A stretch of DNA of 64,000 bases from an uncultured Syntrophomonadaceae bacterium (lineage in GTDB: Bacteria; Bacillota; Dethiobacteria; DTU022; PWGO01), in contig CAZWVJ010000008.1 of the NCBI GenBank assembly GCA_964636865.1, positions 862 through 64,861 of the forward strand, read 5' to 3'. Below the pieces are notes generated by a model. The model did no database searches. It was not told the origin of the DNA and worked only from the letters and a program-made list of their open reading frames with translations. Positions 22,772 through 56,450 of the stretch are shown here, in pieces. Made by a program: the position numbers and the translations under genes. The number at the start of each line of letters is the position of its first letter. Position 1 is the stretch's first letter.

Positions 22772-23417
22772 AGTCATCTTTCCATAATGTGTTCACATTT
22801 CTCAATTCATGAGGTTTTATTGCTTAAAGTTATTTGTAGGGATGATTTTTATAGAATTACGTCCGAGAAAACCTTAAACTTTAGTCCGAAAAGTCGTCAC
22901 TTTCTTTATGTTCCGGTAATAAAAACGCCAATTCAAGGTACATAAGTATAAAGCATCCCTGGTTTTTTTTAACTAAAAATTTAAAAAAAATAATAAAAAT
23001 GTATTGCTAAAAAATACTTAAAGATATAAAATATTTATAAATTGCATAATATTCAAAAATGGTTGCAATTTCGAAGCTAACGAACATATCTAATTTCTCT
23101 CATTGTTTTGTAATATTTTCAGCTCCTAAATTATCTGCTTAATTATCACTATTAATAATTTTATCAAAGCAAAATTATTTTTAATATTTGCAGCTTAGTT
23201 CTCATAGTTTTCCTTTAATTAAATACTTATAGCGACGTCAGTTATCAGTTGGCAATAAATAAACAGGGGGTGGTATGATTTTTATATCTCCAAATTAATT
23301 ATATCCCCTTATTAAAGTTGCTGTTTTGATGTTTCTCTGAGAAATATTGGAAGTACACGAGGATGTTTTTATGCAACCCGTAATTTGTATTTTTGGAAAG
23401 GAGATAATTGGTTCATT

Positions 23418-24308: not shown

Positions 24309-24368
24309 TGGCCCGGAAAAAAGATACCGGGAAATATTTTTGCTGGCAAATCCAAAGGAGGTAAATAC

Positions 24369-25511: not shown

Positions 25512-25610
25512 TTAAGAATTAGCATCAACGGGAGTAGGGAGGTGAAAAGTTTTTCTTACATGAATCCATTAACTACTTCGTATATTTGACGATCCTAGGA
25601 GGTGATAAGA

Positions 25611-26753: not shown

Positions 26754-26779
26754 ACATGCACAGAAAAGGAGGTGGAAAA

Positions 26780-27943: not shown

Positions 27944-27957
27944 GGAGGTGAAAAACT

Positions 27958-28467
27958 ATGACAAAAATATCAAATTGGGATATAACCGTGCCTTACCAGT
28001 GGACACCCGGACCGGTTTTAGGAACTTTTTTGGGAGGCCTGCGGGAAAAAACCATCACCGGTGTAAAATGTAATTCTTGCGGCAAAATATATGTTCCTCC
28101 CCAGGATTTGTGCCGGGACTGCCTGGAAGACATGCAGGTGGAAAATTTTGTGGAAGTCAAGCCGGAAGGCACGGTAGAAGGGTTTGTTAAAATCAGGCAA
28201 AATTTTTTCGGAGAAAGGCCTTCGAAAGAATACCTTAGTGAAAGGATCAGCCCTGCCGATATTGATAAGCATCCTCTGTTATGGTTTCCGGAGACACCTT
28301 ATGTGGTGGCCATGATTAAATTAGACGGGGCGGACACCTGCATGCTGCACTTGGTGAAGGGAGCGGACATGGATAACCTGAAAATAGGTTCTCGAGTGGG
28401 GGCAGTTTGGAAAGAAGAAACCATTGGACATATAATGGACATTGATTGTTTTAAGATAACTGAATGA
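27958..28467 (+). CDS. DUF35 Zn-ribbon/OB-fold protein
   Basis: CNSCGKIYVPPQDLCRDC rubredoxin-like zinc ribbon followed by an OB-fold-like region. GAGGAGGTG RBS. Confidence 0.8.
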   Translation: MTKISNWDITVPYQWTPGPVLGTFLGGLREKTITGVKCNSCGKIYVPPQDLCRDCLEDMQVENFVEVKPEGTVEGFVKIRQNFFGERPSKEYLSERISPADIDKHPLLWFPETPYVVAMIKLDGADTCMLHLVKGADMDNLKIGSRVGAVWKEETIGHIMDIDCFKITE

Positions 28468-28481
28468 AGGGAGGGGGAAAA

Positions 28482-28928
28482 ATGTTCGAGCCTACAAGCA
28501 GGGTTATGCATACCTGGTATGTACCTTACAAGTGGTCTTATGGCCAGCGGGCTACTGAATTTTTAGAGTTGATGAGAAAAGAACAAAAAATCTTTTTTGG
28601 CCGTTGCACCAGTTGCAAAAAGGTTATTATTCCTACAGCTATCTGCGGAAGATGTTTTGCCCCATTGGAAGACGAGTTAGTGCCTTTAAACGATGAAGGG
28701 GTGTTGGAATGTTTTACCGTAGTATATCTTCCTTTTCCCACTCAGCCGGCCGAACCTCCTTATGCCTATGGCTACATCAGGCTGGATGGTTCTTCCAGCA
28801 CCATGCCGCATATTATTGATGAAGTGGATTATGATGATCTGAGAGTGGGCATGAGGGTAAAGGCAGTTTGGAGAGAGGAGCTAAAGGGTGACATTTACGA
28901 TATTAAATATTTCAAGCCGATAGATTAA
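28482..28928 (+). CDS. DUF35 Zn-ribbon/OB-fold protein (second copy)
   Basis: CTSCKKVIIPTAICGRC zinc ribbon followed by an OB-like C-terminus. The ATG at 28482 follows AGGGAGGGGG. Confidence 0.8.
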   Translation: MFEPTSRVMHTWYVPYKWSYGQRATEFLELMRKEQKIFFGRCTSCKKVIIPTAICGRCFAPLEDELVPLNDEGVLECFTVVYLPFPTQPAEPPYAYGYIRLDGSSSTMPHIIDEVDYDDLRVGMRVKAVWREELKGDIYDIKYFKPID

Positions 28929-42322: not shown

Positions 42323-42800
42323 AAAACTAAAAAAACCCGAAATAGATATGGAACAACTTACGCACATAGTAAACAGTTATAAGCATCAAAAATGGTCATT
42401 AATCCCTTTGGTGCAGGATATTCAAGATGAATTCGGATTTATTCCCCCTGAATCCATACCCGTTATTGCCGATGCTTTAAACCTTTTTCCCAGTGAAGTG
42501 CAGGGAGTAGTTTCTTTTTATGCACAGCTGTATACAGAGCCAAGGGGTAGAAACATAGTTCGCGTTTGCCGGGGAACGGCTTGTCATGTTCGTGGGGGCA
42601 AAACAGTGCTAAAACTGGTGAAAAAACAGCTGGGATTACAAGAAAACCAAACTTCTGAAGACCTGGAATATACTTTAGAAACAGTAGCATGCCTGGGTGT
42701 TTGTGCTCTTTCTCCCAGCATGGTTATAAATAACCAGGTATATGGAAATATGAACCCCAAAAAAATTAAGCTGTTGTTTAAGGGGGAGGAGGGTAGTTGA
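42315..42800 (+). CDS. NuoE/HydC-like 2Fe-2S thioredoxin-fold subunit
   Basis: VCRGTACHVRG...ETVACLGVCALSPSMVIN matches the NuoE [2Fe-2S] pattern. The start overlaps the upstream stop. Confidence 0.85.
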   Translation: MSEKLKKPEIDMEQLTHIVNSYKHQKWSLIPLVQDIQDEFGFIPPESIPVIADALNLFPSEVQGVVSFYAQLYTEPRGRNIVRVCRGTACHVRGGKTVLKLVKKQLGLQENQTSEDLEYTLETVACLGVCALSPSMVINNQVYGNMNPKKIKLLFKGEEGS

Positions 42801-42802
42801 TT

Positions 42803-45800
42803 ATGCAAAAACGCACTGTATTTGTTTGTCAGGGAACCGGGTGTTTTTCCAGTGGATCTCAGGCTTTATATGATCATTTGCTTGCGGAAGTAAAGCAGCT
42901 GCAAATTCAGGATACTGAAGTAGATTTTACCGGATGCCATGGATTTTGCGAGCAAGGTCCCATTGTCGTAGTAGAACCGGAAGGAATATTTTATACCCGC
43001 GTTCAACCTGAGGACGCTTCTGAAATAGCATTATCTCACCTGCAGAAAAACATACCGGTAGAGCGGCTCTACTATCGGGATCCTTTGAGTGGAGAGGCGA
43101 TACCTTATTATAAAGATGTTAATTTTTATCAAAAACAACAACGAGTAATTCTGGAAAACTGCGGGCACATAAACCCTGAAAATATTGAGCATTCAGTAAC
43201 AAAAGGAAAATACCGGGGATTGGAAAGGGCCCTGTTAAACTTATCTCCCCAACAGGTTATCGAAGACATAAAGGCATCAGGATTACGCGGACGCGGGGGA
43301 GCCGGTTTTCCCACAGCGCGCAAATGGGAATTTTGTTTTAACGCTCCCGGACCCAAAAAGTATGTGATCTGTAACGCCGATGAAGGCGATCCCGGAGCTT
43401 TTATGGATCGTTCCATCTTGGAAGCCGATCCTCATGCGGTAGTAGAAGGTTTAACTATCGCCGGCTATGCCGTTGGTGCTGATGAAGGATATATTTATGT
43501 GCGTGCCGAGTATCCTCTGGCAGTGAAAAGATTGCGTATGGCCATTAAAGAAGCCTTAGATAAAGGTTTTTTGGGTAAAAATATTATGGATTCCGGTTTT
43601 AATTTTACCCTGAATATTAAGGAAGGTGCCGGTTCTTTTGTGTGCGGTGAAGAAACAGCCCTTATAGCTTCTATCGAAAGCCGTCGGGGAATGCCCAAGC
43701 CTCGTCCTCCTTTTCCCGCTCAATCCGGGCTGGATGGAAAGCCAACGGTTATAAATAACGTTAAAAGCCTGGCAGCTGTTTCTGCCATTATGCGGCGTGG
43801 AGCAGATTGGTTTGCTTCTATGGGCACCGATAAAAGCCGGGGAACAGTAGTTTTTGCCTTAACGGGAAAAGTAGCCAATAGTGGACTGGTGGAAGTAGAA
43901 GCAGGTACACCACTATCTTCCATCATTTTCGATATAGGCGGGGGCATTCCTCGCGGCAAAAATTTTAAAGCTGTCCAAACCGGCGGTCCTTCGGGAGGAT
44001 GTATTCCGGCACCTTACATGGATACCCCCGTGGAATTTGAAAACCTGGCTCGCCTGGGATCCATTATGGGATCAGGTGGTATGGTGGTTTTGGATGAAAG
44101 TACTTGCATGGTAGAAATTGCCAGGTATTTTCTCAGCTTCACTCAATCGGAATCTTGCGGGAAGTGCACCCCCTGCCGCTTGGGTACAAGGCAAATGTTG
44201 GAGATATTAACCCGCATTACCCAGGGCTTGGGCCGAGACGGGGATATCGAAGCTCTCTACAATATTGCGAAAACAGTGAAGGAAGGTTCTTTATGTGGAT
44301 TGGGGCAAACTTGCCCTAACCCGGTTTTAACTACACTTGACTATTTTCGTAAGGAATATGAAATGCACATAAGAGAAAAAAAATGCCAGGCTGCAGTCTG
44401 CGATGCGCTTATGATTTCTCCCTGTCAACACACCTGCCCGGTGGGGGTAGATGTGCCTCGCTATGTGGAAGCTATTTCCCGGGGAGCATACCTGGAATCG
44501 GTAGATATAATCAGGGAACGTAATCCTTTTCCCGCTATTTGCGGGCGGATTTGCCATCATCCATGTGAAATGAGGTGCCGTCGTGGTGAACTGGATGACT
44601 CCCTGGCTATCAGGGCATTAAAACGTTTTTCCGGCGATTGGTATTTTGATAATATTCAAGAACTTCCTCCACCCGCACATTTTGAGCGCCTCTATCCGCA
44701 AAATATTGCCGTAGTTGGGGCAGGCCCCTGCGGTCTTTCTTGCGCATATTTTTTAGCTCAGATGGGCTACGGAGTTATCATTTTCGAAGCTTTACCTGTA
44801 GGCGGAGGAATGCTTTCTGTAGGTATTCCCGAGTTTCGGTTGCCTGAAAAAGTTCTCGAGGAAGAAATAAATTATATCCAAAAGTGTGGGGTGGAAATTA
44901 AGTATAACACCCCGATTAACGTAAATTTTACCATTGAAGATCTTAAGCAAAGCGGTTATGATGCTGTATTTATTGCCGCCGGAGCTCAAAAAAGCCAGCA
45001 AATAGGAATACCCGGTGAAATTGAAGATTTGGAAGGATTTTATTACGGATTACGTTTCCTTCGGGATGTAAAGATAGGCAAGAGGGTATCCATTGGCAAA
45101 AAAGTGATAGTTATCGGCGGAGGTAATGTTGCTCTGGATACTGCCCGAACGGCTGTTCGCATGGGAGCAGAGCAGGTTGAAATATTTTATCGCCGCACCG
45201 AGGAACAAATGCCGGTTTCGGAATTTGAATACAAAGAAGCTTTAGATGAAGGAGTGAACGTAAATTTTCTGGTGAGTCCTACGCGTATTGTAAGCAGTAA
45301 TTGGAAAGTAACGGGAATAGAGTGTATTAAAATGCAACTGGGTGAACCCGGCAGTGATGGAAGGCGCCGCCCGGTACCGGTATCGGGAACTGAATTTTTT
45401 GCCCCAGCAGATACTGTATTTGCTTCCGTGGGCCAGGCTCCCGATCTTTCATTTTTACCGAGTGATAGCGCCCTGGAACGTTCGAGGATGGAAACCCTGG
45501 TAGTAGATGAAAATAGTCTCTCTACAAATGTGCCGGGTGTATTTGCCGGAGGCGACTTTGTTACCGGCCCTGATATGGTAGTTGAGGCCATTGCGGCCGG
45601 AAGAAGAGGGGCGTTGGCTATAGATAAGTATTTTAAAAAAGATCCTTCGCGGGTTTTAATGTATGATATTCCAAAAAGTGTGACTGCGGGAAAAGAGGAA
45701 GATGAGGAAGAAGGCTCTGAAGACCTTGAAGAGGAATTGGAGGAAGAAACATGGCAACCACAATTTCGACCTGAAATACCACAGCTTTCCGTCCCCATTA

Positions 45801-45895
45801 GAAAAAAAAGCTTTCAAGAAACAGAATTGTGCTTTTCAGAAGAAGAAGCAGTTCAGGAATCGAAACGGTGCCTCAGATGTGATCTGGAAAGATGA
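42803..45895 (+). CDS. NuoF/HydB-like FMN/NADH subunit fused to a GltD/NfnB-like FAD/NAD(P)H oxidoreductase
   Basis: N-terminal 2Fe-2S module (VCQGTGC...GCHGFCEQGP). NuoF core (GLRGRGGAGFPTARKW, CNADEGDPGAF, ESCGKCTPCRLG). GltD-type NPFPAICGRICHHPCEMRCRR. Dinucleotide folds VVGAGPCGLSCAYFL and VIVIGGGNVALD. Acidic tail EEDEEEGSEDLEEELEEE. Confidence 0.85.
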   Translation: MQKRTVFVCQGTGCFSSGSQALYDHLLAEVKQLQIQDTEVDFTGCHGFCEQGPIVVVEPEGIFYTRVQPEDASEIALSHLQKNIPVERLYYRDPLSGEAIPYYKDVNFYQKQQRVILENCGHINPENIEHSVTKGKYRGLERALLNLSPQQVIEDIKASGLRGRGGAGFPTARKWEFCFNAPGPKKYVICNADEGDPGAFMDRSILEADPHAVVEGLTIAGYAVGADEGYIYVRAEYPLAVKRLRMAIKEALDKGFLGKNIMDSGFNFTLNIKEGAGSFVCGEETALIASIESRRGMPKPRPPFPAQSGLDGKPTVINNVKSLAAVSAIMRRGADWFASMGTDKSRGTVVFALTGKVANSGLVEVEAGTPLSSIIFDIGGGIPRGKNFKAVQTGGPSGGCIPAPYMDTPVEFENLARLGSIMGSGGMVVLDESTCMVEIARYFLSFTQSESCGKCTPCRLGTRQMLEILTRITQGLGRDGDIEALYNIAKTVKEGSLCGLGQTCPNPVLTTLDYFRKEYEMHIREKKCQAAVCDALMISPCQHTCPVGVDVPRYVEAISRGAYLESVDIIRERNPFPAICGRICHHPCEMRCRRGELDDSLAIRALKRFSGDWYFDNIQELPPPAHFERLYPQNIAVVGAGPCGLSCAYFLAQMGYGVIIFEALPVGGGMLSVGIPEFRLPEKVLEEEINYIQKCGVEIKYNTPINVNFTIEDLKQSGYDAVFIAAGAQKSQQIGIPGEIEDLEGFYYGLRFLRDVKIGKRVSIGKKVIVIGGGNVALDTARTAVRMGAEQVEIFYRRTEEQMPVSEFEYKEALDEGVNVNFLVSPTRIVSSNWKVTGIECIKMQLGEPGSDGRRRPVPVSGTEFFAPADTVFASVGQAPDLSFLPSDSALERSRMETLVVDENSLSTNVPGVFAGGDFVTGPDMVVEAIAAGRRGALAIDKYFKKDPSRVLMYDIPKSVTAGKEEDEEEGSEDLEEELEEETWQPQFRPEIPQLSVPIRKKSFQETELCFSEEEAVQESKRCLRCDLER

Positions 45896-45910
45896 AAAGG
45901 AGGGATAAAT

Positions 45911-46579
45911 TTGAAATCTATTACCAGGCTAAAACCTTATGCAGAAATTATGCAGCAGCTGGAAGATTGTAACCGAGTTTTTATAGTGGGATGTGGCACT
46001 TGTGCTACGGTGGTTCAAACGGGGGGGATAGAGCAGGTAGAAGCTATGAAAGAGCAACTGCAGGAATCTGGAATGCTGGTAACCGGTTGGACCGTTATAC
46101 CCACTGCCTGTGACGAGATGACTTCTGCTTCAACCGCTGAATATGAATCTGCCATCCAAAGCGCAAATGGGATATTGGTCATGGCTTGTGCCCTGGGGGT
46201 GCAGAGGTTAAATCTTTATACAGGCAAACGAGTCTTACCTGCTCTTGATACTTTGTTTATGGGTTTAGAAGAAAGTCCCGGCTATTTTGTGGAAGCTTGC
46301 GACCAATGTGGAGAGTGCATTCTTGGCTATACGGCAGGGATTTGCCCGGTAACTGCCTGTCATAAGGGTTTACTTAACGGTCCGTGTGGTGGTACCAACA
46401 AGGGTAAATGTGAAGTGGATCAAGAAAAAGATTGCGCTTTTACTCTCATTTATCAGAAGTTGAAAGACCTGGGCCGGCCGGATTTAATGAAACATTATCA
46501 CCCACCTAAAAATGCGCAGGTATGGCCTAGGCCAAAAGTAAAGATTCTGGAAGCAAAGGAGACAGAACAATGGATTTAA
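45911..46579 (+). CDS. metV: MetV, methylene-THF reductase-associated Zn-ribbon/Fe-S subunit
   Basis: GCGTCATV near the N-terminus and CPVTACHKGLLNGPCGGT, typical of MetV. TTG start after AAGGAGGG. It lies 15 nt after the previous gene and overlaps metF. Confidence 0.8.
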   Translation: MKSITRLKPYAEIMQQLEDCNRVFIVGCGTCATVVQTGGIEQVEAMKEQLQESGMLVTGWTVIPTACDEMTSASTAEYESAIQSANGILVMACALGVQRLNLYTGKRVLPALDTLFMGLEESPGYFVEACDQCGECILGYTAGICPVTACHKGLLNGPCGGTNKGKCEVDQEKDCAFTLIYQKLKDLGRPDLMKHYHPPKNAQVWPRPKVKILEAKETEQWI

Positions 46580-47460
46580 AATTTAAAAGTTTACTTGATT
46601 CCGGAAAGTTTGTAGTGACTGCAGAGGTGGCACCGCCTAAAGGAATTGAGCTTGAACAGATGAATCATCATATTGAGCTTCTTAAGGAGAAAGTAGATGC
46701 TTTAAATGTAACCGATCACCAAAGTTCAGTTATGCGTTTTCCCTCCATGGGAGGCTGCCTTGCCATTAAGGAAGGAGGCGGTGAACCCATTCTGCAGATG
46801 ACCTGCCGTGATCGCAACCAGATTGCCCTGCAGTCTGATCTCCTGTTAGCATACTCCCGGGGCATAAGAAATGTGCTTTGCCTCACCGGGGATGCTATGC
46901 CGGTGGGAGATCACCCTCAAGGCCGCGGTGTTTTTGAAATGGACTCTGTTCAATTATTGCATTGTATAAACAGGTTGGAAGAAGGTTATGACATGGGGGG
47001 CAATGAATTAAAGGGAGGAGTCTCTTTCTGTAAGGGAGCAATAGTTACTCCGGAAGCAGATCCTATAGAGCCTCAATTAAGCAAATTTGAAAAGAAAGTT
47101 GAAGCGGGTGTGGAATTTATTCAGACCCAGGCCATCTATGATCTGGATAATTTTGCCGCCTTTATGGAGCATGCCCGACAATTTTCTGTAAAGGTAATAG
47201 CCGGAATTGTTTTACTTACTTCTGCGAAAATGGCCAGATATATGAACAACAACGTTCCCGGCATTTTCGTGCCGCAACACCTTATTGATGAACTGGCTGA
47301 TGCTCCCAAAGGAACTGCTCTGCAGAAAGGAATTGAAATTGCGGGCCGCATGATTGCCACTTTACATAATGATGCCCTCTGTGATGGAGTCCATATCATG
47401 GCCATTAACAAAGAAGAAGTTGTCCCGGAGATTTTGGAGGCTGCGGGTATTCAATCATAA
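46570..47460 (+). CDS. metF: methylenetetrahydrofolate reductase (acetogen/anaerobe-type MetF)
   Basis: FVVTAEVAPPKG N-terminus, LNVTDHQ, CLTGD and FIQTQAIYD motifs. 296 aa. Confidence 0.85.
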   Translation: MDLKFKSLLDSGKFVVTAEVAPPKGIELEQMNHHIELLKEKVDALNVTDHQSSVMRFPSMGGCLAIKEGGGEPILQMTCRDRNQIALQSDLLLAYSRGIRNVLCLTGDAMPVGDHPQGRGVFEMDSVQLLHCINRLEEGYDMGGNELKGGVSFCKGAIVTPEADPIEPQLSKFEKKVEAGVEFIQTQAIYDLDNFAAFMEHARQFSVKVIAGIVLLTSAKMARYMNNNVPGIFVPQHLIDELADAPKGTALQKGIEIAGRMIATLHNDALCDGVHIMAINKEEVVPEILEAAGIQS

Positions 47461-49378: not shown

Positions 49379-50632
49379 TTACGGCATATTTTTATCAACA
49401 TAAACAGCTAATTTTCCTAAAAAATTAACATAACTACCAAGTTCATTGTCATACCAACCGAAAATTTTAGCATGGGTGACGGGAATGTTAATGTCCTCTT
49501 GTATATCGATGCCGTGTTCGCGCAGGGTATCAGCATAAAAAGGGATGAAGCCGGTTCTGGTATGTGTTTCCGCTCCTTCAATGATAATTGCGGCAGGATA
49601 ACCAATCATGTCTGAGGAGACATTCTTTTTTTCACTGTAAACAAGCATTTCTTTTTGGGGGCCTTCAGCGGCTTTTTTATAAATATTGTTAATAAAATTT
49701 TTGCTTAAAAGAGGTTCGCCATCTTCGCTCAGGGTAGTGTTAAACGTAACGTTGAGGACAATAAGAGAAGCTGTACTAATGGGGACTCTAACTGAATCTG
49801 CCATGATGCCGATCTGCTTTATTTCCGGTAAAATATTTTCCAGGGCAAACCCTGCGCCGGTAGTGGTCATGATTATGTTGTTAAATACGGAGCGGGTTTT
49901 TCTCAAATCAGAAGCATCTGCTTTAGGTGCCGAATCTAATATATTTTGATTATTTGTAGCTGCATGGACAGTAGACATTGAAATAGTAATAATTTCTGAT
50001 GTTTCGCGGGTATCCAGTAGTGGACTAACCATGTGTGCCAAGCCGGTGGTTGTACAACTGGCGGCAGAAACAATATGGTGATCATCGGGTTCGTATTCAT
50101 GGTGATTGATTCCATATACAAAGGTGCCGCAATCGGAAGGAATCTCCTGGATGTTATCGGCGACTTTAAAAGGAGCACTGACAATAACCTTTTCGGCCCC
50201 GGCCTCAAGATGGCCGCGCATGCTGCCTTTGGGGTGATCAGCAGGAACAGTGGGATCAACAAAATTCCCCGTGCATTCCACAACCAGCCGTACATCTTCT
50301 TTAGCCCAGTTAATATTTCTTGGATTTCTGGAATCTGCGATAAGTTTAATCGGCAATCCGTTAATGGTAAAAATAGCTGAATCCCGGTCAGTAATTTCAA
50401 TATCGCAGGTTTTGCCTGAATATCCATAAAAGAAATTATCCAAAGATCCAAAAGTAGAATCTTTTACCAGGTAGTCAATAAAGTCTTCCAATTTTTTGCC
50501 CACTTTTCTGCCGGCATTAATAACAAAACCATCAAAGTGCCCATAGTTTAAATGATTCCACAGGGTGAGTTTTCCAATCCGCCCGATACCATTGATGCCT
50601 ATTTTTTTAGTACTTTTTAGGAGATTATTCAT
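49379..50632 (-). CDS. GAPDH-family dehydrogenase, unusually long (417 aa)
   Basis: INGIGRIGK Rossmann motif, catalytic SAASCTTTG, STVHAAT and C-terminal WYDNELG. It has several insertions relative to the roughly 335-aa classical enzymes. Confidence 0.75.
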   Translation of the reverse strand: MNNLLKSTKKIGINGIGRIGKLTLWNHLNYGHFDGFVINAGRKVGKKLEDFIDYLVKDSTFGSLDNFFYGYSGKTCDIEITDRDSAIFTINGLPIKLIADSRNPRNINWAKEDVRLVVECTGNFVDPTVPADHPKGSMRGHLEAGAEKVIVSAPFKVADNIQEIPSDCGTFVYGINHHEYEPDDHHIVSAASCTTTGLAHMVSPLLDTRETSEIITISMSTVHAATNNQNILDSAPKADASDLRKTRSVFNNIIMTTTGAGFALENILPEIKQIGIMADSVRVPISTASLIVLNVTFNTTLSEDGEPLLSKNFINNIYKKAAEGPQKEMLVYSEKKNVSSDMIGYPAAIIIEGAETHTRTGFIPFYADTLREHGIDIQEDINIPVTHAKIFGWYDNELGSYVNFLGKLAVYVDKNMP

Positions 50633-50692
50633 TTACCTTTTTCACCCCTATCTTTCTTAAATATATTGAATTATTGAGCAAATTTGTCTTTA

Positions 50693-53600
50693 TCAGCTTT
50701 TTGCGCTTTGGTATGAAAATGAAAGTTGATTATCTTCTGCATGTATGCTTCCCACTTGCCCATCGATATAAATAGTGGCACCTGATTTAATGGTGACATT
50801 GTTAATTGTACATTCTTTATTGGTTTCGTCAACTTTAAGTTCTTTGCAATTAACAATGCATACTTTACCTAATTTCTGGGCCGATACCGCTGCATGGGAA
50901 GTAATGCCTCCCCGGCTGGTAACCAACCCGTCGCTTATAAAAATCATGTGAATGTCATCGGGTACCGTATCGGGCCGGATTAAAATGTGATTTTCCTCGG
51001 GATATTTATTTTTATTTTCTTGCAGATCTTCCATATAGAAGCTGACAATGCCCTTCATGAGGCCTCCACCAACTCCGATACCTTTACCGATCATGCTTCC
51101 TTGAGCATTGGTAGTGTTGAAGGAAACTTCTTTATCTTTGGGAGTAATTTCTTGTTCTCTGGTTTGAAGAAGGTACAGATCTTCCGGTTCCGGTGACTCA
51201 AAAGTAAATTCAATCTGCTGGTGGTTAAAACCGTGTGTTTCTATTAGTTCGGCAGCAATTTCATACAGGCGTTGAAAGATTTCAGGAAATGCAGATTCAA
51301 GGGAAAATTCAGAGTCCTGGTATTCATTTATACGTTGTCTTTCTGAAACAGGCATAGTATAAACAAGGCCGGAGACAATATCTTCTCCCTGACTGCAAGT
51401 TGTAAAATCTCCATAGAGATGGATGCCCGGTTTATTTAATTTGGGATCATGGGTAAAAACCACCCCTGTACCGGAATTTCTTGAGCGGTTGCCCATTACC
51501 ATTTTTTGGACGGTAACTGCCGTGCCCCATTCATCGGCGATTTGCATATGTTTGCGATAAGCATTGGCTCTTTTAGAAGACCATGAATCAAAAACAATGG
51601 AAATGGCCTGCTTAAGTTGTTCAAAAGAATCTTCTGCAACGAAAACATTATTTTTGTTGAGTATTTTTTTATATTCTTTAGCTATTTCTTTCATCTGCAT
51701 CGCATTGAAGAAGGATTTAAGCTTAACATTATATCTTTTTTTATAATAAGCCATGATTTCATCAAACAAATCCCGATCGATGCCATATGCCATGCCCCAA
51801 CTTTGGATAAATCGCCGGTAAGAATCCCAGCTCATCCAAGCTGTTTTAGCGTTTTTACCCAACTCTTCGGCGATAGCGTCATTCATTCCCACATTTAGAA
51901 GGGTAATCATGGCGCCGGGCATCGAAAATGCTGTTCCGGAACGAACAGATAAAAGCAAGGGATTTTTAACACTGCCAAACTGTAGCCCCTCGGAAATCTC
52001 TAACGCATGCACCTGGCTTAAAATTTTGTTTTCCAGGTCACGCAGCATATTTTGGTTTTTAAAAATAGTTTGCTTGTGCCTGTAAACTTCTGTAGTGAGA
52101 ACAAAACCGGGGGGGATGGGTAAATTATAAGAAGACATTTTTTTGAGGTAATATGCTTTGGCGCCCAGAAAAATTCGATTGTCCATGGGCAGGGTTTCTT
52201 GGGTTAAAGGACTGATAGCCAGTTCCGGCTTATAGCTGGTATTGGTGTGTATATGCACTTCCTTCTTGTTTTCAATCAGGTTTTCGGTCACATTGATTAA
52301 GTTAGCCAGGAAATTATCAAGTTCCTGCATTAAAAAGGAGGAGGATAATATATCCCGGTAAAAAATTTCAGATACGTTCATGAGCGTTTCGGCTGAATCA
52401 TCGTATATTTGAGGGACTACAATATTAAGAGCTTCATCGTAAAACCTCATAAAATACTTATTTATTGCTTCTTTGATATGTCCGGACATGAATCTGAAAA
52501 TGTTTATATACTGCCCCAATGTAACGCTGGGTGAAAAAAGGCTGTGCCGAATCATCTCCAGGGTAGAATTAAAATTTTGGTTTACTATGCCATCTAACTC
52601 AAGTCCTTTTTTGAATTGAACAAGCAATGCATATACTTCATCAAGAGTGTGCGGTGAAAAATTTTCCAGGGGTAAATCTTTTAGTAATCGTTCAAACAAA
52701 TGAGAGGCTAACTGTTCCAGTCTGTAAATGAGGCCCAGGGCTTCAAATTTCGGTTCTCTGTATTCTCCGTACATTGAAGGAATCCCTATGGCTATATGCC
52801 TTTTATAATAAATGTTTTCAACAGGTTCAGTTATAGTGTCGTCCAGTATTATTTCGTTTAAATCTTCCATAAAAGCATATACTTGTTCCAGGGCTTGTTG
52901 ATGCAAATTTTGTTCCAAAAATTCTTGTAGTTGTTTGATATCATCTTGTTGGAAAAAATTACTGCGTGACAAAACATCAATGATGTTGTTGGCCTCTAAA
53001 GAATATTTAGCTAATAAAAGTTTGTTCATATGAAGAAGATATATTAATCGTTTTTTATCTCTTTCATTCACCGAACTCTGGTTTTGAATAAATTCTGCGA
53101 CCTCATCTTCAGGTAATTTCAAAAGTCCTTCAAAGTCAACGTTAAAGTGTTCGCATACTTCATTCATGAGGAAGTTTATTTCTACAAAATACTCACTTTC
53201 TACATCAATGAATTCGATAACGTCGCTGGGAAGTATAGCTTGTAGTGGTTTTAAATCACCATTGTACCAAAAACCGGCTACTTTTTTTATAAGCTCTACA
53301 TGCATGTTGTTACTTTCGGCGTGAATTTGCTTTCTGACAAAATGCATGAGCCGGTCTTTTCTACCGGAGAGTTCATCTATAGCTGTGCTGTAATCGCGTA
53401 GATCTCCTTCGGCGCCGATTTCGTTATAATATACCGGAAAAACTCTGGCTAATTGCTTGACCTGTTTAAATACTGACCCGATATTTGCGTTTAGCAATTT
53501 AGTAATATCACGCTGAAAAAGATCAGTGTCAGAGATAAAAATGCCGCCAAGTTTTAGATTAACCAGAAGAGCCGACAAAAGTTTTTTAAAATTATAAGGC

Positions 53601-54775
53601 GAGGTCCCGATTAATTCCAGCCAAACTCTAATATTTTTTACATGGTTTGGGTTGGCTTTGGTTACCCAGTCATCAGTTATTTCAATTTTTCCCGGGAATA
53701 CAAAACCAAACTCAATTAGTTTCTCTATGTAATGATTGATGATTTCCTGGTCTTCAATGGCGGCAATTTCTTTTCCCAGTGTAAGTTGACAATCTAAAAT
53801 TGTGCCGGTGTGCTGTTCTCTAAGATCAATGAAAAGGTTAAACATAATATCAATGAAAGGATAGATATCTTTGTTGGCAAGTTCTGCTAAAACTGTCTTG
53901 AGTAATCTATTCAGATCATAGAGGAGGTGATTTTTAAGGGGAATCATTCCCGGTAAATGCAACAAGTATAAAAGATAATATATCTTTTCTATGGAAAGCT
54001 CGAGTTCTTCGATAAAATGCCGATAATAGTTGGCAATTTCTTCAAAAAAGAGGTTTGACTCAATTTCGTTCCATTCTTGAGATGCTTCGATTTGCTCTGA
54101 TAGATCCTTAAAGAATATTTTCCCAAGTTGCTTTATTTTTTCCCGACTTTCGGGAAGAAAAAGTTCTGATTTGCTTTCTATCCATTCCTCGATATTAGTG
54201 GTATTTTCCCAGTATGCACAGCTTTTCCGCAGGATTTCTTTGGTAATTTCGCAAATTTTTTGATTAAACTCTGGAACTTTGGCCAATTTTCTTAGATACA
54301 TTTTAAAGTGCCTCGCATTCCGCAGGTAGATCTCTTCATTTTTAGCCATTCCCTGTTCAATCAAATCCAAGCATTTCCAAATTACCCGGGGTGGATAGTT
54401 CTCTTCTTTGGCAAGTTTGTCTACAAACACGAAAAGTGTTCTAACTAATTGTTCCTGCAATTTTTCTTCCAGTTCTTTATTTTGTAGTTCTTCAAAAATA
54501 TCTACCAAAAAAAGCAAGGCTTCTTCCGATTCTTCCACTGAATTATAAAGCCACAAATCATTTACGCTGATCTTGTGCAAACTTTTGATAATAAAAGCGT
54601 AATCGGGGTATGCATGGTTGTACTCTTTAATAAAATTTTCCGTTTTTTTGTTTATACCCCAGTATGAAGCAGATAAAGAAAGAAACCAATGATGCTTTTC
54701 CGGAAAATCTATCTGGTCTTGTTTTGTCTGAGTTAAATTAGCTTCTAACGCTTTTGATTTAAAAGTGCTTTTCAT
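50693..54775 (-). CDS. PPDK/PEP-synthase-like dikinase (ATP-grasp plus phospho-His swivel domain) with an approximately 860-aa N-terminal helical region of unknown function and no PEP/pyruvate TIM-barrel domain
   Basis: Residues about 865-1360 read like PPDK: LGAKAYYL..LPIPPGFVLT, LLLSVRSGTAFSMPGAM, WDSYRRFIQ, GTAVTVQKMVMGN, SGTGVVFT, SQGEDIVSG, QQIEFTFE, GGITSHAAV (His codon at 50894-50896). Nothing PPDK-like follows the swivel domain. The N-terminal part matches nothing I recognise. Confidence 0.75.
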   Translation of the reverse strand: MKSTFKSKALEANLTQTKQDQIDFPEKHHWFLSLSASYWGINKKTENFIKEYNHAYPDYAFIIKSLHKISVNDLWLYNSVEESEEALLFLVDIFEELQNKELEEKLQEQLVRTLFVFVDKLAKEENYPPRVIWKCLDLIEQGMAKNEEIYLRNARHFKMYLRKLAKVPEFNQKICEITKEILRKSCAYWENTTNIEEWIESKSELFLPESREKIKQLGKIFFKDLSEQIEASQEWNEIESNLFFEEIANYYRHFIEELELSIEKIYYLLYLLHLPGMIPLKNHLLYDLNRLLKTVLAELANKDIYPFIDIMFNLFIDLREQHTGTILDCQLTLGKEIAAIEDQEIINHYIEKLIEFGFVFPGKIEITDDWVTKANPNHVKNIRVWLELIGTSPYNFKKLLSALLVNLKLGGIFISDTDLFQRDITKLLNANIGSVFKQVKQLARVFPVYYNEIGAEGDLRDYSTAIDELSGRKDRLMHFVRKQIHAESNNMHVELIKKVAGFWYNGDLKPLQAILPSDVIEFIDVESEYFVEINFLMNEVCEHFNVDFEGLLKLPEDEVAEFIQNQSSVNERDKKRLIYLLHMNKLLLAKYSLEANNIIDVLSRSNFFQQDDIKQLQEFLEQNLHQQALEQVYAFMEDLNEIILDDTITEPVENIYYKRHIAIGIPSMYGEYREPKFEALGLIYRLEQLASHLFERLLKDLPLENFSPHTLDEVYALLVQFKKGLELDGIVNQNFNSTLEMIRHSLFSPSVTLGQYINIFRFMSGHIKEAINKYFMRFYDEALNIVVPQIYDDSAETLMNVSEIFYRDILSSSFLMQELDNFLANLINVTENLIENKKEVHIHTNTSYKPELAISPLTQETLPMDNRIFLGAKAYYLKKMSSYNLPIPPGFVLTTEVYRHKQTIFKNQNMLRDLENKILSQVHALEISEGLQFGSVKNPLLLSVRSGTAFSMPGAMITLLNVGMNDAIAEELGKNAKTAWMSWDSYRRFIQSWGMAYGIDRDLFDEIMAYYKKRYNVKLKSFFNAMQMKEIAKEYKKILNKNNVFVAEDSFEQLKQAISIVFDSWSSKRANAYRKHMQIADEWGTAVTVQKMVMGNRSRNSGTGVVFTHDPKLNKPGIHLYGDFTTCSQGEDIVSGLVYTMPVSERQRINEYQDSEFSLESAFPEIFQRLYEIAAELIETHGFNHQQIEFTFESPEPEDLYLLQTREQEITPKDKEVSFNTTNAQGSMIGKGIGVGGGLMKGIVSFYMEDLQENKNKYPEENHILIRPDTVPDDIHMIFISDGLVTSRGGITSHAAVSAQKLGKVCIVNCKELKVDETNKECTINNVTIKSGATIYIDGQVGSIHAEDNQLSFSYQSAKS

Positions 54776-55043
54776 AAAATCACCCCAATAGCTGCACGCT
54801 TTGTTGTTTGTTTGACAAATGTGTAAATTTAGGAGTTATCTTTTTCAAATACATTATATCAGAAATAATATGAAAAAAATAGTTAGAAAAATAAGACAAT
54901 ACACTTCCTAAGCATAATCTGGCAGATAATATAATGGGCAGGAGAACTGTATATTTTCAAGAAATATTATTACTAAAGAACCACTAAGAACGCCCGGAAG
55001 TTTATGTTTTGATAAAGTTGCCATTTGATAGGAGTGACGGGGA

Positions 55044-56450
55044 ATGAGTGCTAACGAGAAAATACTACAGGAAGGTCTTTTTAATCGGGTGTATGGACTT
55101 TTTGAGGTTATGACCAAATTTCCGGAGGTAATGAGCGAAGCCGAACTGGAAGGTTTAATTAAAGTGCTTCCTCCCGATTCAGCAAACAGCATAAGATGCA
55201 TCTTAAGGCCATCTATCCAGGAAGCAAGTATGTCTTACATAAAAATGCTCAATGTGTGGCTTAAAGAAGCCAGGCAGGCGCGAGAAGAAGGTAAAAAAGT
55301 TATCCTTCTTCCTTTTAACTTTAACCCGGAAATAATTCATTTTTTTGATAATCTATTTCCTCTTACCAGTGAAGTTCTTACTACCATGGGAGTAGTAGCC
55401 CTGGAGGGGCAGGGTCAAAGATACTGGGATTATGCTATGGGAATGGGAATGCCTGACCATATTTGTTCGGCAAATTCGGTGGAAATTGGCTCTGTGCTTA
55501 CAGGAGTGGATTTTAAGCCTGATGCCGTGATTTCAGCAGCTCCGGGGGCTTGTGATATGAATGCTAAAATTCACGAGTTTTTGGCCAGATACCTCGAAAT
55601 TCCTCAGTTTGTGATACAAAAGCCACCGGATAATACGCAGCGGGGATACGAATTTTTTAAAAACAGCTATAGAAAGTTATTTGCTATACTGGAAGATTAT
55701 GCCGGGGAAGAAGTAAAAGAGGAAAGAATGCGGGAAGTGGCAGCAAAAGCGAATCGCTGCACGGAATTGTATTATGATCTTTGGGAATTAAAAAAGCAAA
55801 TGCCCTGCCCCGTGCCGGGAATATTTTCTCTCTATATTATTGGAGTTCGCTTTGCCATGTGGGGAAGGGATGAAGGTATAGCGACACTGCAAAAAATGGT
55901 AGAAGTGGCTCGCCGTAATCTTGAAGATCCACATTACCAAACTCGAGAAGAAGTTGCCCGGGTGCTCTGGACTTATGTAAGTTATTATTACGACTTGCTT
56001 GGTTTTTACGAATGGATGGATGAAAAGGGAATTATTAATATGGGGGACATGCTCCAGATTAATTTTACCCAACCCATTGATTTAAGCACCCGCGAGAGTA
56101 TTCTTGACGGTATTGTTGAAAACGCATGGAATGCTTTTATGACCAGGCAAATGGGGGGTGATTCCATGTCATTACGGTGGGTAAATGATCTGATTCACAT
56201 TATTAAAGAGTTTGGTGTCAACGGTGCTATCTTTTGCGGTCATCATGCTTGTAAACAAAGCCAGAGTGTTTTTTCCATTGCCCGTAAGGAAGTTCAAGAA
56301 AAAGCCGGTGTTCCTACTTTAAAATTACAAGGGGATTCCTGGGTAGGTTCTATGACTCCCATGAGCGTTATTCAGGAAGAAGTGGATCAGTTTATAAATA
56401 ATGTGGTTAATAAGAAAAGAAGACGTCGGAAAAGATCCGGAGGAATATAA
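55044..56450 (+). CDS. 2-hydroxyacyl-CoA dehydratase / benzoyl-CoA reductase BcrC-BadD family protein (solo subunit)
   Basis: Length and overall pattern fit the family (VISAAPGACDMNAKIHEF, FCGHHACKQSQ). The C-terminal poly-basic tail KKRRRRKRSGG is unusual. This is a family-level call only. Confidence 0.55.
   Translation: MSANEKILQEGLFNRVYGLFEVMTKFPEVMSEAELEGLIKVLPPDSANSIRCILRPSIQEASMSYIKMLNVWLKEARQAREEGKKVILLPFNFNPEIIHFFDNLFPLTSEVLTTMGVVALEGQGQRYWDYAMGMGMPDHICSANSVEIGSVLTGVDFKPDAVISAAPGACDMNAKIHEFLARYLEIPQFVIQKPPDNTQRGYEFFKNSYRKLFAILEDYAGEEVKEERMREVAAKANRCTELYYDLWELKKQMPCPVPGIFSLYIIGVRFAMWGRDEGIATLQKMVEVARRNLEDPHYQTREEVARVLWTYVSYYYDLLGFYEWMDEKGIINMGDMLQINFTQPIDLSTRESILDGIVENAWNAFMTRQMGGDSMSLRWVNDLIHIIKEFGVNGAIFCGHHACKQSQSVFSIARKEVQEKAGVPTLKLQGDSWVGSMTPMSVIQEEVDQFINNVVNKKRRRRKRSGGI

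What the first reader, a model, noticed from the sequence alone, without database searches (positions are those of the whole stretch)
50693..54775. 1360-aa dikinase-like protein: PPDK ATP-grasp and phospho-His domains, no PEP/pyruvate domain, and a huge unknown N-terminal region
The C-terminal 500 or so residues carry essentially every PPDK N-terminal and central-domain motif, including the TSH phospho-histidine. The protein ends about 65 residues after that His, so the PEP/pyruvate-binding TIM barrel is absent.

In its place, about 860 mostly helical, Leu/Glu/Lys/Asn-rich residues precede the ATP-grasp domain (52184-54775), and I cannot assign them to any family.

Known relatives that swap the substrate domain are rifampicin phosphotransferase and glucan-water dikinases, which phosphorylate non-pyruvate targets. 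This protein may do the same for an unknown substrate.

Spot counts of single 60-nt lines inside this gene gave about 30-33% GC, against roughly 40-50% in neighbouring genes. That hints at foreign origin.
Basis: partly seen in the sequence, partly recalled or inferred. Interest (0 to 1): 0.75.

Follow-up and report, generated by a model that had tools for sequence, protein, structure and literature searches.

The report
Dikinase-like enzyme paired with GAPDH paralogue
This 1360-residue protein has the ATP-driven phosphate-carrying machinery of pyruvate phosphate dikinase joined to a large helical domain of unknown type, and across many phyla of anaerobes it sits beside a special copy of the glycolytic enzyme GAPDH, so it is probably an undescribed enzyme of central sugar metabolism.

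Summary
The ORF at 50693-54775 (-) is real. Residues 856-1360 are a PPDK-type ATP-grasp domain plus a phospho-histidine swivel domain (T-S-H, His1294). The PEP/pyruvate TIM barrel is absent. Residues 1-855 form a confidently modelled all-helical solenoid with no match in Pfam, NCBIfam, PDB sequences or PDB folds.

It is not an assembly fusion. The same architecture occurs in at least 599 species-level genomes and 633 clusters at 50% identity, in Bacillota, Bacteroidota, Desulfobacterota, Thermodesulfobacteriota, Cloacimonadota and others. It is also not compositionally foreign (GC3 z = -0.6).

The new result is context. In 56 of 60 testable loci a 410-424-residue GAPDH paralogue lies directly downstream, as it does here at 49379-50632. 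This paralogue keeps the catalytic Cys and His and both phosphate sites, but has lost Asp32. In Thermodesulfatator-type genomes the pair sits inside gap-[dikinase]-[gap-like]-pgk-tpi.

My best reading (about 0.35) is an ATP-to-AMP-driven 3-phosphoglycerate dikinase that makes 1,3-bisphosphoglycerate for a dedicated, probably NADPH-using, GAPDH. That would be a gluconeogenic bypass of PGK. Nothing has been tested biochemically, and no paper describing the family was found.

The parts
50693..54775 (-). Whole gene, 1360 aa: N-terminal helical solenoid, then PPDK-type ATP-grasp, then phospho-His swivel domain.
   Evidence: ORF list and translation. More than 120 full-length homologues at 50-69% identity.
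52211..54775 (-). Residues 1-855: all-alpha solenoid domain of unknown family. It is the presumed acceptor or second-substrate station for the swivelling phospho-His.
   Evidence: AlphaFold model with pLDDT 84.7 and pTM 0.76, all helices. No Pfam, NCBIfam or PDB sequence match. Foldseek returns only generic HEAT/ARM hits with TM 0.1-0.2. 633 clusters carry the region, and every full-length cluster checked or listed by length has the same architecture.
53507..53548 (-). Motif GGIFISDTDLFQRD (residues 410-423), with invariant D416 and conserved D418.
   Evidence: Invariant columns in A1 and A3. Kept in all clades.
53393..53422 (-). Motif EIGAEGDLRD (residues 452-461), with invariant R460 and E456 conserved in most members.
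   Evidence: Lies in a low-confidence loop of the model.
53300..53323 (-). Motif HAESNNMH (residues 485-492), preceded by invariant R481-K482; H485 is invariant.
   Evidence: This motif was one of the two patterns that retrieved 599 genomes.
52733..52813 (-). Motif IYYKRHIAIGIPSMYGEYREPKFEALG (residues 655-681). It forms a beta-hairpin carrying invariant K658 and H660, near-invariant R659 (His in P0180), P666 (Ala in P0180), and invariant S667 and G670.
   Evidence: Modelled as a hairpin in the second model.
51143..52210 (-). Residues 856-1211: PPDK-type ATP-grasp nucleotide-binding domain, with K873, R945, G954, R987/R988, E1189, Q1204 and R1206.
   Evidence: Pfam PPDK_N. Alignment to 1KBL residues 15-341. 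Foldseek to 1KBL gives rmsd 3.1 A over 542 columns.
50696..51142 (-). Residues 1212-1360: linker and phospho-histidine swivel domain (PEP-utilizers). The catalytic T1292-S1293-H1294 has its His codon at 50894-50896. The protein ends here, with no TIM barrel.
50633..50692 (-). 60-nt spacer with a ribosome-binding site (GGGGTGAAAAAGG) and no terminator-like hairpin. The two genes form an operon.
49379..50632 (-). Partner gene: a 417-aa type-I GAPDH paralogue.
- It keeps GxGxxG, Cys (SCTT), His (TVHAAT), both anion sites and WYDNE.
- Asp32 is replaced (V-I-N-A-G-R).
- The S-loop and five other sites carry insertions.
   Evidence: Pfam Gp_dh_N and Gp_dh_C. TIGR01534 scores 294.5 bits against a cut-off of 367. 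Alignments. Directly downstream in 56 of 60 testable loci.
54776..55043 (-). Upstream intergenic region, shared with the divergent HGD-D gene. It is the presumed promoter region. No Rfam element was found.

Best explanation
The gene and its downstream neighbour form a self-contained two-enzyme module that works at the 3-phosphoglycerate / 1,3-bisphosphoglycerate / glyceraldehyde-3-phosphate node.

Proposed mechanism:
1. The PPDK-type ATP-grasp domain uses ATP to load His1294. By analogy with PPDK this goes through His-PP and release of AMP, with Pi converted to PPi. (Shown: all the residues are present. Inferred: the chemistry.)
2. The swivel domain carries His~P to a conserved, charge-rich site in the N-terminal helical domain.
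3. That site phosphorylates the carboxylate of 3-phosphoglycerate to give 1,3-bisphosphoglycerate. (Inferred. His~P to carboxylate transfer is the chemistry of succinyl-CoA synthetase and ATP-citrate lyase.)
4. The dedicated GAPDH paralogue then reduces the labile acyl phosphate to glyceraldehyde-3-phosphate, probably with NADPH. (Inferred from the loss of Asp32 and the altered S-loop, as in gluconeogenic GapB.)

Net reaction: 3-PG + ATP (+Pi) + NAD(P)H -> G3P + AMP + PPi (or 2 Pi).

This would be a strongly driven gluconeogenic bypass of PGK + GapA, useful to autotrophs, acetate and fatty-acid oxidisers and syntrophs with a low energy charge. The same enzyme run backwards would be a PPi-dependent, ATP-forming substitute for PGK.
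For: 1. The catalytic machinery for ATP-dependent His phosphorylation is intact and invariant family-wide. The domain is much closer to PPDK (375 bits) than to PEP synthase (83-94 bits).
2. The N-terminal domain carries residues that are invariant in all 15 sequences sampled across every clade: D416, R460, D467, R481, K482, H485, K590, Y591, K658, H660, S667, G670, R807 and D820. H378, D474, R659 and P666 each change in one of the 15. This is a pattern typical of a site binding an anionic or metal-bound ligand, not of a passive scaffold.
3. Gene context:
- Only two families are shared among 82 loci (81 retrieved loci plus the window region), the dikinase-like protein and the GAPDH paralogue.
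- 56 of 60 testable loci have the paralogue less than 700 bp downstream, and 3 of the 4 exceptions have a canonical gap within about 3 kb.
- The pairing persists at 31-36% identity.
- 124 flanking ORFs fall into 141 Pfam families with no common third partner.
4. In Thermodesulfatator-type and related genomes the order is gap-[dikinase-like]-[gap-like]-pgk-tpi-secG. In Bacteroidales a canonical gap is immediately upstream.
5. The paralogue keeps the catalytic Cys and His and the residues of both phosphate sites, so it should make or use an acyl phosphate of a phosphorylated C3 aldehyde. It lacks Asp32 in every lineage, while the canonical gap in the same operons keeps it.
6. Cultured carriers include obligate chemolithoautotrophs. 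In Dissulfurimicrobium hydrothermale the consecutive tags LGS26_08510 pgk, 08515 gap, 08520 'PEP synthase' and 08525 gap match the module, and that organism cannot ferment glucose, so the pathway runs gluconeogenically (PMC8780430).
7. Occasional neighbours use 3-PG or make PG: SerA-like in 9 loci and glycerate kinase in 2.
Against: - There is no biochemical or genetic datum for any member.
- The substrate is inferred only from gene context and from residues of the partner enzyme.
AlphaFold placed the His domain on the ATP-grasp side.
- Genomes carrying the module also carry PGK and a canonical GAPDH, so the module is not essential for the step.
- Two divergent members (P0180, P0255) have no adjacent GAPDH. 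P0180 has lost the catalytic His yet keeps the N-terminal invariants, which suggests the N-terminal domain has a role that does not need phosphotransfer.
- HEAT-like solenoids are more often protein-binding than catalytic.
- NADPH use is inferred from one sequence signature only.
Confidence: 0.35

Rival explanations
1. Protein-directed phosphotransfer or regulation. The solenoid docks the GAPDH paralogue (or another glycolytic enzyme), and His~P is passed to a residue of that protein, or ATP turnover remodels it. This would switch flux at the triose-phosphate node, in the way PTS enzyme I passes phosphate to HPr through a helical docking subdomain.
For: - The fold is HEAT/ARM-like, which is typically a protein-binding surface.
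- The partner has six lineage-conserved insertions that could be docking sites.
- Some divergent members carry an N-terminal hemerythrin sensor domain and have signalling neighbours such as a response regulator and GGDEF.
- PEP-utilizer swivel domains are used as regulatory or protein-directed modules elsewhere: PTS EI, and the extra C-terminal domain of Bacillus pyruvate kinase (own knowledge).
Against: - The many invariant charged residues in the N-terminal domain look like a small-ligand or catalytic site.
- No conserved candidate acceptor His, Ser or Thr in the GAPDH paralogue was identified.
- An enzyme-sized ATP-to-AMP machine is an expensive regulator.
- The hemerythrin-fused member has a dead phospho-His, so that clade says little about phosphotransfer targets.
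Confidence: 0.2
2. The same enzyme pair, but physiologically glycolytic. GAPDH-like makes 1,3-BPG, and the dikinase-like protein converts 1,3-BPG + AMP + PPi into 3-PG + ATP + Pi. This would be a PPi-dependent substitute for PGK that raises the ATP yield in PPi-based glycolysis.
For: - The ATP-grasp is PPDK-type, and PPDK is reversible and ATP-forming in many anaerobes.
- Carriers are strict anaerobes, many of them from groups known for PPi-dependent glycolysis (own knowledge).
Against: - Loss of Asp32 in the partner points to NADP(H), and so to the reductive direction.
- Many carriers are non-saccharolytic autotrophs, acetate oxidisers or syntrophs.
- 1,3-BPG has a lower group-transfer potential than PEP, so ATP formation from AMP + PPi would be less favourable than in PPDK (own estimate).
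Confidence: 0.15
3. The dikinase-like protein phosphorylates some other small molecule, and the GAPDH paralogue is a functionally linked but chemically separate enzyme. One example would be a resistance or detoxification pair: a drug phosphotransferase, like rifampicin phosphotransferase, together with a toxin-insensitive GAPDH. Another would be a pair acting on a different phosphorylated aldehyde or acid such as erythrose-4-P / 4-phosphoerythronate.
For: - Members of this superfamily phosphorylate very diverse acceptors, including rifampicin, phenol, aniline, glucans and prodigiosin precursors.
- Resistant GAPDH copies are known companions of GAPDH-targeting natural products (own knowledge).
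- GAPDH homologues include E4P dehydrogenase.
Against: - The pair is embedded in the housekeeping gap-pgk-tpi operon, and the two-gene unit is conserved across phyla.
- There is no biosynthetic, transporter or resistance context.
- There is no PADLOC hit.
- The partner keeps all G3P/1,3-BPG-binding residues.
Confidence: 0.1
4. Assembly chimera or recently acquired foreign gene without a conserved function.
For: Gene GC is somewhat below the window mean.
Against: - The identical architecture is found in more than 120 close and hundreds of distant homologues, on contigs up to several Mb.
- GC3 is normal.
- The residues are strongly conserved.
Confidence: 0.01

Closest known systems
Pyruvate, phosphate dikinase (PPDK, EC 2.7.9.1; e.g. 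Clostridium symbiosum 1KBL/1DIK)
   Same: The ATP-grasp nucleotide domain and the phospho-His swivel domain are shared, at about 31% identity over about 540 residues. The T-S-H motif is present, and the ATP-site residues K22, R92, G101, R135, E323, Q335 and R337 are conserved. The model superposes on 1KBL with rmsd 3.1 A.
   Different: There is no C-terminal PEP/pyruvate TIM barrel. Instead an 855-residue helical domain sits at the N-terminus. TIGR01828 scores 375 bits against a cut-off of 843. The gene context is GAPDH and PGK, not pyruvate metabolism.
Rifampicin phosphotransferase (RPH) and PigC/RedH-type PEP-synthase-like enzymes
   Same: They follow the same principle: an ATP-grasp plus a swivelling His domain deliver phosphate to a non-pyruvate acceptor bound by a lineage-specific domain. 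Foldseek to 5HV1 gives E 5e-6.
   Different: - The domain order differs. RPH runs ATP-grasp, acceptor domain, His domain. Here the acceptor domain comes first.
- The match covers only the shared modules, at 15% identity.
- The family models score 23-40 bits against cut-offs of 999-1350.
Succinyl-CoA synthetase / ATP-citrate lyase (mechanistic analogue only)
   Same: An ATP-grasp domain loads a mobile phospho-His, which phosphorylates a carboxylate to an acyl phosphate. This is the chemistry proposed here for 3-PG (own knowledge).
   Different: There is no sequence or fold relationship to the N-terminal domain. These enzymes use ATP to ADP, not ATP to AMP.
PGK + gluconeogenic NADP-dependent GAPDH (GapB of Bacillus subtilis)
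   Same: They carry out the same proposed pathway step, 3-PG to 1,3-BPG to G3P. The partner enzyme shares GapB's loss of the NAD-specifying Asp32 (own knowledge of GapB).
   Different: PGK is unrelated in fold and uses ATP to ADP. The partner here is 410-424 aa with six insertions, and falls below the type-I GAPDH cut-off.
PTS enzyme I
   Same: It has a PEP-utilizer swivel His domain working with a helical subdomain that docks the phosphoryl acceptor.
   Different: EI is charged by PEP through a TIM barrel, not by ATP. Its helical subdomain is about 100 residues. No HPr-like partner is found here.

Membership tests
Pyruvate, phosphate dikinase (PPDK) | N-terminal ATP-grasp nucleotide-binding domain with its catalytic residues | tested here: met
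   PF01326 at E 1e-28. Aligned to 1KBL residues 15-341 with the K22, R92, G101, R135, E323, Q335 and R337 equivalents conserved.
Pyruvate, phosphate dikinase (PPDK) | Central phospho-histidine swivel domain with the T-S-H motif | tested here: met
   PF00391 at E 6e-16. GGITSHAAV with His1294.
Pyruvate, phosphate dikinase (PPDK) | C-terminal PEP/pyruvate-binding TIM barrel (PEP-utilizers_C) | tested here: not met
   There is no Pfam hit. The protein ends 66 residues after the His, and the alignment to 1KBL stops at about residue 510 of 873.
Pyruvate, phosphate dikinase (PPDK) | Score above the curated equivalog cut-off (TIGR01828) | tested here: not met
   375.4 bits against a cut-off of 843.45, covering profile positions 14-339 of 865 only.
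PEP synthase (pyruvate, water dikinase) | Full-length match to TIGR01418 / PRK06464, including the PEP/pyruvate domain | tested here: not met
   83-94 bits against cut-offs of 598-740, covering the swivel region only.
Rifampicin phosphotransferase | Architecture of ATP-grasp, then RIF-binding domain, then C-terminal His domain, and a match to NF041857 | tested here: not met
   23.5 bits against a cut-off of 999. Foldseek aligns only the shared modules, and the domain order differs.
Glucan, water dikinase | N-terminal carbohydrate-binding modules (CBM45/CBM20) | tested here: not met
   Residues 1-855 have no Pfam hit, and the model is all-alpha with no beta-sandwich.
PEP-utilizing / dikinase superfamily (broad sense) | ATP-dependent autophosphorylation of the swivel His and transfer to an acceptor | not testable with these tools
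   This needs a [32P]ATP labelling assay. Only the sequence prerequisites are shown.
Type I phosphorylating GAPDH (the partner, 49379-50632) | Rossmann GxGxxG, catalytic Cys149 and His176, Ps and Pi anion-site residues, WYDNE | tested here: met
   Alignments to PDB GAPDHs and to canonical gap genes from the loci.
Type I phosphorylating GAPDH (the partner, 49379-50632) | Score above the TIGR01534 equivalog cut-off, and the NAD-specifying Asp32 | tested here: not met
   294.5 bits against a cut-off of 367.2. Asp32 is replaced in all lineages by the V-N-x-G-R signature.

The most novel reading that the evidence does not exclude
The protein is a 3-phosphoglycerate dikinase, a previously unrecognised central-metabolism enzyme. 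It makes 1,3-bisphosphoglycerate at the cost of ATP to AMP and hands it to a dedicated NADPH-GAPDH. This would be a second, thermodynamically driven route for the PGK/GAPDH steps of gluconeogenesis, or in reverse a PPi-dependent ATP-forming PGK substitute. It would be present in hundreds of anaerobic species, and its acceptor domain would be a new catalytic fold.
Probability: 0.3. Interest if true: 0.9.

Novelty: new variant of a known kind. Interest (0 to 1): 0.74.

Why it matters
The lower part of glycolysis and gluconeogenesis is regarded as fully known. PGK is treated as the universal link between 3-PG and 1,3-BPG. A widespread, conserved alternative encoded inside gap-pgk-tpi operons would change several things:

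- Metabolic reconstructions would need revising for acetogens, syntrophs, sulfate and sulfur metabolisers, Geobacter and many uncultured anaerobes.
- Energy budgets of organisms living near the thermodynamic limit would change.
- Genome annotation would need correcting. The protein is currently labelled PPDK, 'ppdk2' or PEP synthase, and has been counted as PEP synthase in at least one published genome analysis.

Even if the substrate guess is wrong, two things stand. The family defines a new acceptor domain for the swivelling-histidine dikinase mechanism. There is also a distinct, ancient GAPDH paralogue clade whose role is unknown.

Tried and rejected
1. Assembly fusion. Rejected: the same 1350-1430-aa architecture is found in more than 120 close homologues, at least 599 genomes and 633 clusters at 50% identity.
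2. Horizontal or foreign origin from low GC. Rejected: GC3 z = -0.6, and the deficit is in codon position 2.
3. Assigning the N-terminal domain:
- Pfam on the protein and on 13 members at E <= 5 found nothing consistent.
- NCBIfam found nothing.
- A PDB profile search gave nothing below E 0.5.
- Foldseek against the PDB, using a good model, gave only generic HEAT/ARM solenoids with TM 0.1-0.2.
- The longer model hit PPDK, PEPS and RPH only through the C-terminal modules.
4. A third conserved partner gene. Rejected: ORF clustering and a Pfam census of 124 flanking ORFs found none.
5. Anti-phage defence system. Rejected: no PADLOC hit.
6. Riboswitch or RNA element upstream. Rejected: no Rfam hit in the window.
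7. Using the AlphaFold model of residues 171-1360 to see whether the His domain docks on the N-terminal site. Uninformative: the model adopts the ATP-grasp-docked conformer (best fit 1KBL/1DIK), and the coordinates could not be inspected.
8. Literature. Seven full-text searches found no description of the family. The only trace is its listing as 'phosphoenolpyruvate synthase' in a genome paper.

Full report
**1. The observation**

The minus-strand ORF at 50693-54775 begins with ATG and encodes 1360 residues.

- Pfam places PPDK_N at residues 870-1138 and the PEP-utilizers mobile domain at 1260-1341. It finds nothing in the first 860 residues and no PEP-utilizers_C barrel.
- The NCBIfam PPDK equivalog matches only its first 339 of 865 positions, at 375 bits against a cut-off of 843. 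The PEP synthase, RPH, PigC and RedH models score far lower.
- Against solved structures, the C-terminal 505 residues align with Clostridium symbiosum PPDK (1KBL) over residues 15-341 and 386-510, at E 1.6e-72.
- That alignment shows the equivalents of K22, R92, the G101 loop, R135, E323, Q335 and R337, and the GGxTSHAAV phospho-histidine motif. The D321 equivalent is Gln.
- The catalytic His is residue 1294, and the protein stops 66 residues later.
- The N-terminal 855 residues are rich in Leu, Glu, Ile, Lys and Asn.

The compositional remark is overstated. The gene is 37.3% GC against 42.6% (sd 4.0) for 43 window ORFs (z = -1.3). GC3 is normal (z = -0.6), and the deficit sits in codon position 2. 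It therefore reflects amino-acid composition and not foreign codon usage.

**2. A real, widespread family and not an artefact**

- A search of 5.8 billion proteins returned more than 120 full-length homologues of 1343-1379 residues at 50-69% identity. All have the same two Pfam domains. They are mostly from Bacillota MAGs and are annotated at best as 'PEP/pyruvate-binding domain-containing protein', 'ppdk2' or PPDK.
- A profile of the N-terminal region alone found 633 clusters at 50% identity. The listed hits of 1,227 residues or more (up to 1,540) have the length of the same long architecture, and shorter hits, many of them contig fragments, make up most of the list. The six proteins over 1,100 residues that were checked with Pfam all carry the C-terminal dikinase domains, one of them with an extra N-terminal hemerythrin domain.
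- A scan of one genome per species found at least 599 genomes that encode the region. They span Bacillota, Bacteroidota, Desulfobacterota (Geobacter, Desulfobacteraceae, strain NaphS2), Cloacimonadota, Sumerlaeota, Calditrichota and Dehalococcoidia.
- A more distant clade includes cultured Thermodesulfobacteriota: Thermodesulfatator, Dissulfurirhabdus, Thermosulfuriphilus and Dissulfurimicrobium.

**3. The N-terminal domain**

- With a 13-sequence alignment, AlphaFold2 gave a confident all-helical model (pLDDT 84.7, pTM 0.76).
- A second model of residues 171-1360, built with 49 sequences, reached pLDDT 88 and pTM 0.80.
- Foldseek against the PDB returned only generic HEAT/ARM solenoids such as karyopherins, CAND1 and FANCI, with TM-scores of 0.1-0.2 and E > 1e-3.
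- The longer model matched PPDK, PEP synthase and rifampicin phosphotransferase only through the shared C-terminal modules. Its best fit (rmsd 3.1 A) is to the PPDK conformer in which the His domain is docked on the ATP-grasp.
- Sequence searches also found nothing: a PDB profile and Pfam on each of 13 members at E <= 5.

The domain is nevertheless not a bland scaffold. It carries four strongly conserved motifs:

- GGIFISDTDLFQRD (residues 410-423)
- EIGAEGxLR (452-460)
- RKQxHxESNNxH (481-492)
- IYYKRHIAxGIPSMYGxYxEPKFEALG (655-681)

A set of mostly charged residues is kept in every clade examined, down to 31% identity. D416, R460, D467, R481, K482, H485, K590, Y591, K658, H660, S667, G670, R807 and D820 are invariant in all 15 sequences compared. 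H378, D474, R659 and P666 each change in one of them. That pattern is what one expects of a site binding an anionic or metal-bound ligand.

I could not inspect the coordinates, so I could not show that these residues form one pocket.

**4. The decisive context**

The gene 60 nt downstream (49379-50632) has a ribosome-binding site, and there is no terminator in the spacer. It encodes a 417-residue GAPDH homologue.

Conservation of the pair:

- Among the 81 retrieved loci and the window region, ORF clustering found only two families shared across lineages: the dikinase-like protein and this GAPDH paralogue.
- Of 60 loci with enough downstream sequence, 56 have the paralogue starting less than 700 bp downstream on the same strand, at 56-74% identity to the window's copy. 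Ten shorter loci end within it.
- Three of the four exceptions have a canonical gap within about 3 kb.
- The pairing holds in members only 31-36% identical (L086, L087, L088, L089).
- A Pfam census of 124 flanking ORFs found 141 different families and no common third partner.

Placement in operons:

- In Thermodesulfatator-type genomes and a related MAG the order is ...rapZ-GNAT-gap(334 aa)-[dikinase-like]-[gap-like, 420 aa]-pgk-tpi-secG.
- In several Bacteroidales a canonical gap lies immediately upstream.
- In the published genome of the obligate autotroph Dissulfurimicrobium hydrothermale, the consecutive tags LGS26_08510 (pgk), 08515 (gap), 08520 ('phosphoenolpyruvate synthase') and 08525 (gap) reproduce this arrangement. 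The authors note that the organism cannot ferment glucose, so the pathway must run gluconeogenically (PMC8780430). The identity of 08520 with this family is inferred from gene order and from close Dissulfurimicrobium MAG homologues. It was not checked by sequence.

**5. The partner enzyme**

The partner aligns end to end with type-I GAPDH but scores below the equivalog cut-off, at 294.5 against 367.2 bits.

What it keeps:

- the GxGxxG nucleotide loop
- the SCTT cysteine and the TVHAxT histidine
- the Thr, Arg and Thr-Gly residues of both anion (Ps and Pi) sites
- the RVP arginine and WYDNE

What differs:

- In every lineage the NAD-specifying Asp32 is replaced by a V-N-x-G-R signature, while the canonical gap in the same operons keeps V-N-D.
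- The S-loop around positions 187/188 carries a four-residue insertion, one of six family-specific insertions.

From published work on Bacillus GAPDHs, which I know but did not test here, loss of Asp32 and changes at 187/188 open the site to NADP. That is the signature of the gluconeogenic GapB.

**6. Mechanism proposed**

Shown:
- an intact ATP-grasp and swivel His
- a conserved, charge-rich N-terminal site
- an obligatory GAPDH paralogue competent for acyl-phosphate chemistry
- embedding next to pgk and gap

Inferred:
- ATP loads His1294, PPDK-style, with AMP released and Pi converted to PPi.
- The swivel domain then phosphorylates the carboxylate of 3-phosphoglycerate at the N-terminal site. 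This is the same chemistry as His~P to succinate or citrate in succinyl-CoA synthetase and ATP-citrate lyase.
- The paralogue reduces the resulting 1,3-bisphosphoglycerate with NAD(P)H.

Rough textbook values (my estimate) put 3-PG + ATP + Pi -> 1,3-BPG + AMP + PPi about 13 kJ/mol more favourable than the PGK reaction. Hydrolysis of the PPi would add about 19 kJ/mol more. That would help autotrophs, acetate and fatty-acid oxidisers and syntrophs, which are exactly the organisms that carry the module.

The window itself comes from such an organism. A MetF/MetV methylene-THF reductase cluster and fatty-acid and ketone metabolism genes flank the module.

I give this reading about 0.35.

**7. Rivals**

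- (a) Regulatory or protein-directed phosphotransfer onto the GAPDH paralogue, about 0.2. In its favour are the HEAT-like fold, the paralogue's insertions, and hemerythrin-fused relatives with signalling neighbours. Against it is the enzyme-like invariant residue set.
- (b) The same enzyme operating glycolytically as a PPi-dependent, ATP-forming PGK substitute, about 0.15.
- (c) Another small-molecule acceptor, with the GAPDH only loosely linked, about 0.1. This includes a detoxification or resistant-GAPDH pair.
- The remaining probability is for something not yet conceived.

One observation is unexplained. The hemerythrin-fused member P0180 has lost the catalytic His (Tyr in its place) and an ATP-site Arg, yet keeps almost all of the N-terminal conserved residues (R659 is His and P666 is Ala). 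It also has no adjacent GAPDH. This suggests the N-terminal domain can function without phosphotransfer.

**8. Comparison with known systems, and novelty**

In the broad sense the protein belongs to the swivelling-histidine dikinase superfamily. It fails the defining tests for PPDK, PEP synthase, RPH and glucan-water dikinase: it has no TIM barrel and no CBM, the domain order is wrong, and its scores are far below the cut-offs.

It is best described as a new variant of a known kind. It has a new acceptor domain and a new, conserved partnership with a distinct GAPDH clade.

No paper describing the family was found in seven full-text searches. Public annotations call it PPDK, PEP synthase or hypothetical.

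**9. Verdict**

The finding is upgraded by the GAPDH/PGK context, which turns an open 'unknown substrate' into a specific, testable hypothesis about central carbon metabolism.

Noticed in passing
P0180 / L082:1166-5788 (also P0171, P0165, P0197): A subclade of the family carries an extra N-terminal hemerythrin domain. In P0180 the catalytic His is replaced by Tyr and an ATP-site Arg by Gly, yet nearly all of the N-terminal conserved residues are kept (R659 is His and P666 is Ala). The gene has no adjacent GAPDH; its neighbours are an SH3-domain protein and a GGDEF protein.
   Followed up: partly
L062:6981-7985, L075:524-1528, L050:6978-7994; L087:3991-4998; L090:6957-7961: In Bacteroidales and Thermodesulfobacteriota a canonical 333-338-aa GAPDH that keeps Asp32 lies immediately upstream of the dikinase-like gene. 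These operons therefore encode two GAPDH types flanking it, followed in some by pgk-tpi-secG.
   Followed up: yes
L005:10044-11681 and 8 other loci; flanks: A SerA-like 3-phosphoglycerate dehydrogenase lies 1.5-2.6 kb downstream of the module in 9 loci. A glycerate kinase flanks it in 2 loci. A NagB-like deaminase/isomerase lies just upstream in Syntrophomonadaceae. These may be lineage synteny or a weak 3-PG theme.
   Followed up: partly
window 42315-47460 (+): This is an acetogen-type methylene-THF reductase cluster. It encodes a 161-aa NuoE-like protein, then a 1032-aa fusion (2Fe-2S thioredoxin-like, Nuo51 FMN, NADH 4Fe-4S and pyridine-nucleotide disulphide oxidoreductase domains), then MetV (DUF5981) and MetF (MTHFR). 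The fused NuoF-GltD/HdrA-like subunit is unusual.
   Followed up: no
window 6239-9553 (+): A 1104-aa ORF has no Pfam hit at E <= 1e-5. It lies directly after, and overlaps by 4 nt, a calcineurin-like phosphoesterase gene (5112-6242). It may be an SbcCD-like pair or something else.
   Followed up: no
window 23385-28928 (+): A compact cluster encodes a BKACE (beta-keto acid cleavage enzyme), an acyl-CoA dehydrogenase, two thiolase-like proteins and two ChsH2/DUF35 OB-fold proteins. It is preceded by an AMP-binding ligase at 20885-22771. It looks like a ketone or beta-keto acid pathway.
   Followed up: no
window 54908-55201 (-): A 97-aa ORF with no Pfam hit lies in the intergenic region upstream of the dikinase-like gene and overlaps the start of the divergent HGD-D gene (55044-56450). 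It is probably not a gene.
   Followed up: partly
PMC8780430 (Dissulfurimicrobium hydrothermale genome paper), LGS26_08520: A published metabolic reconstruction counts what appears to be this family's member as one of five 'phosphoenolpyruvate synthases'. This is an example of how the family is currently mis-annotated.
   Followed up: partly
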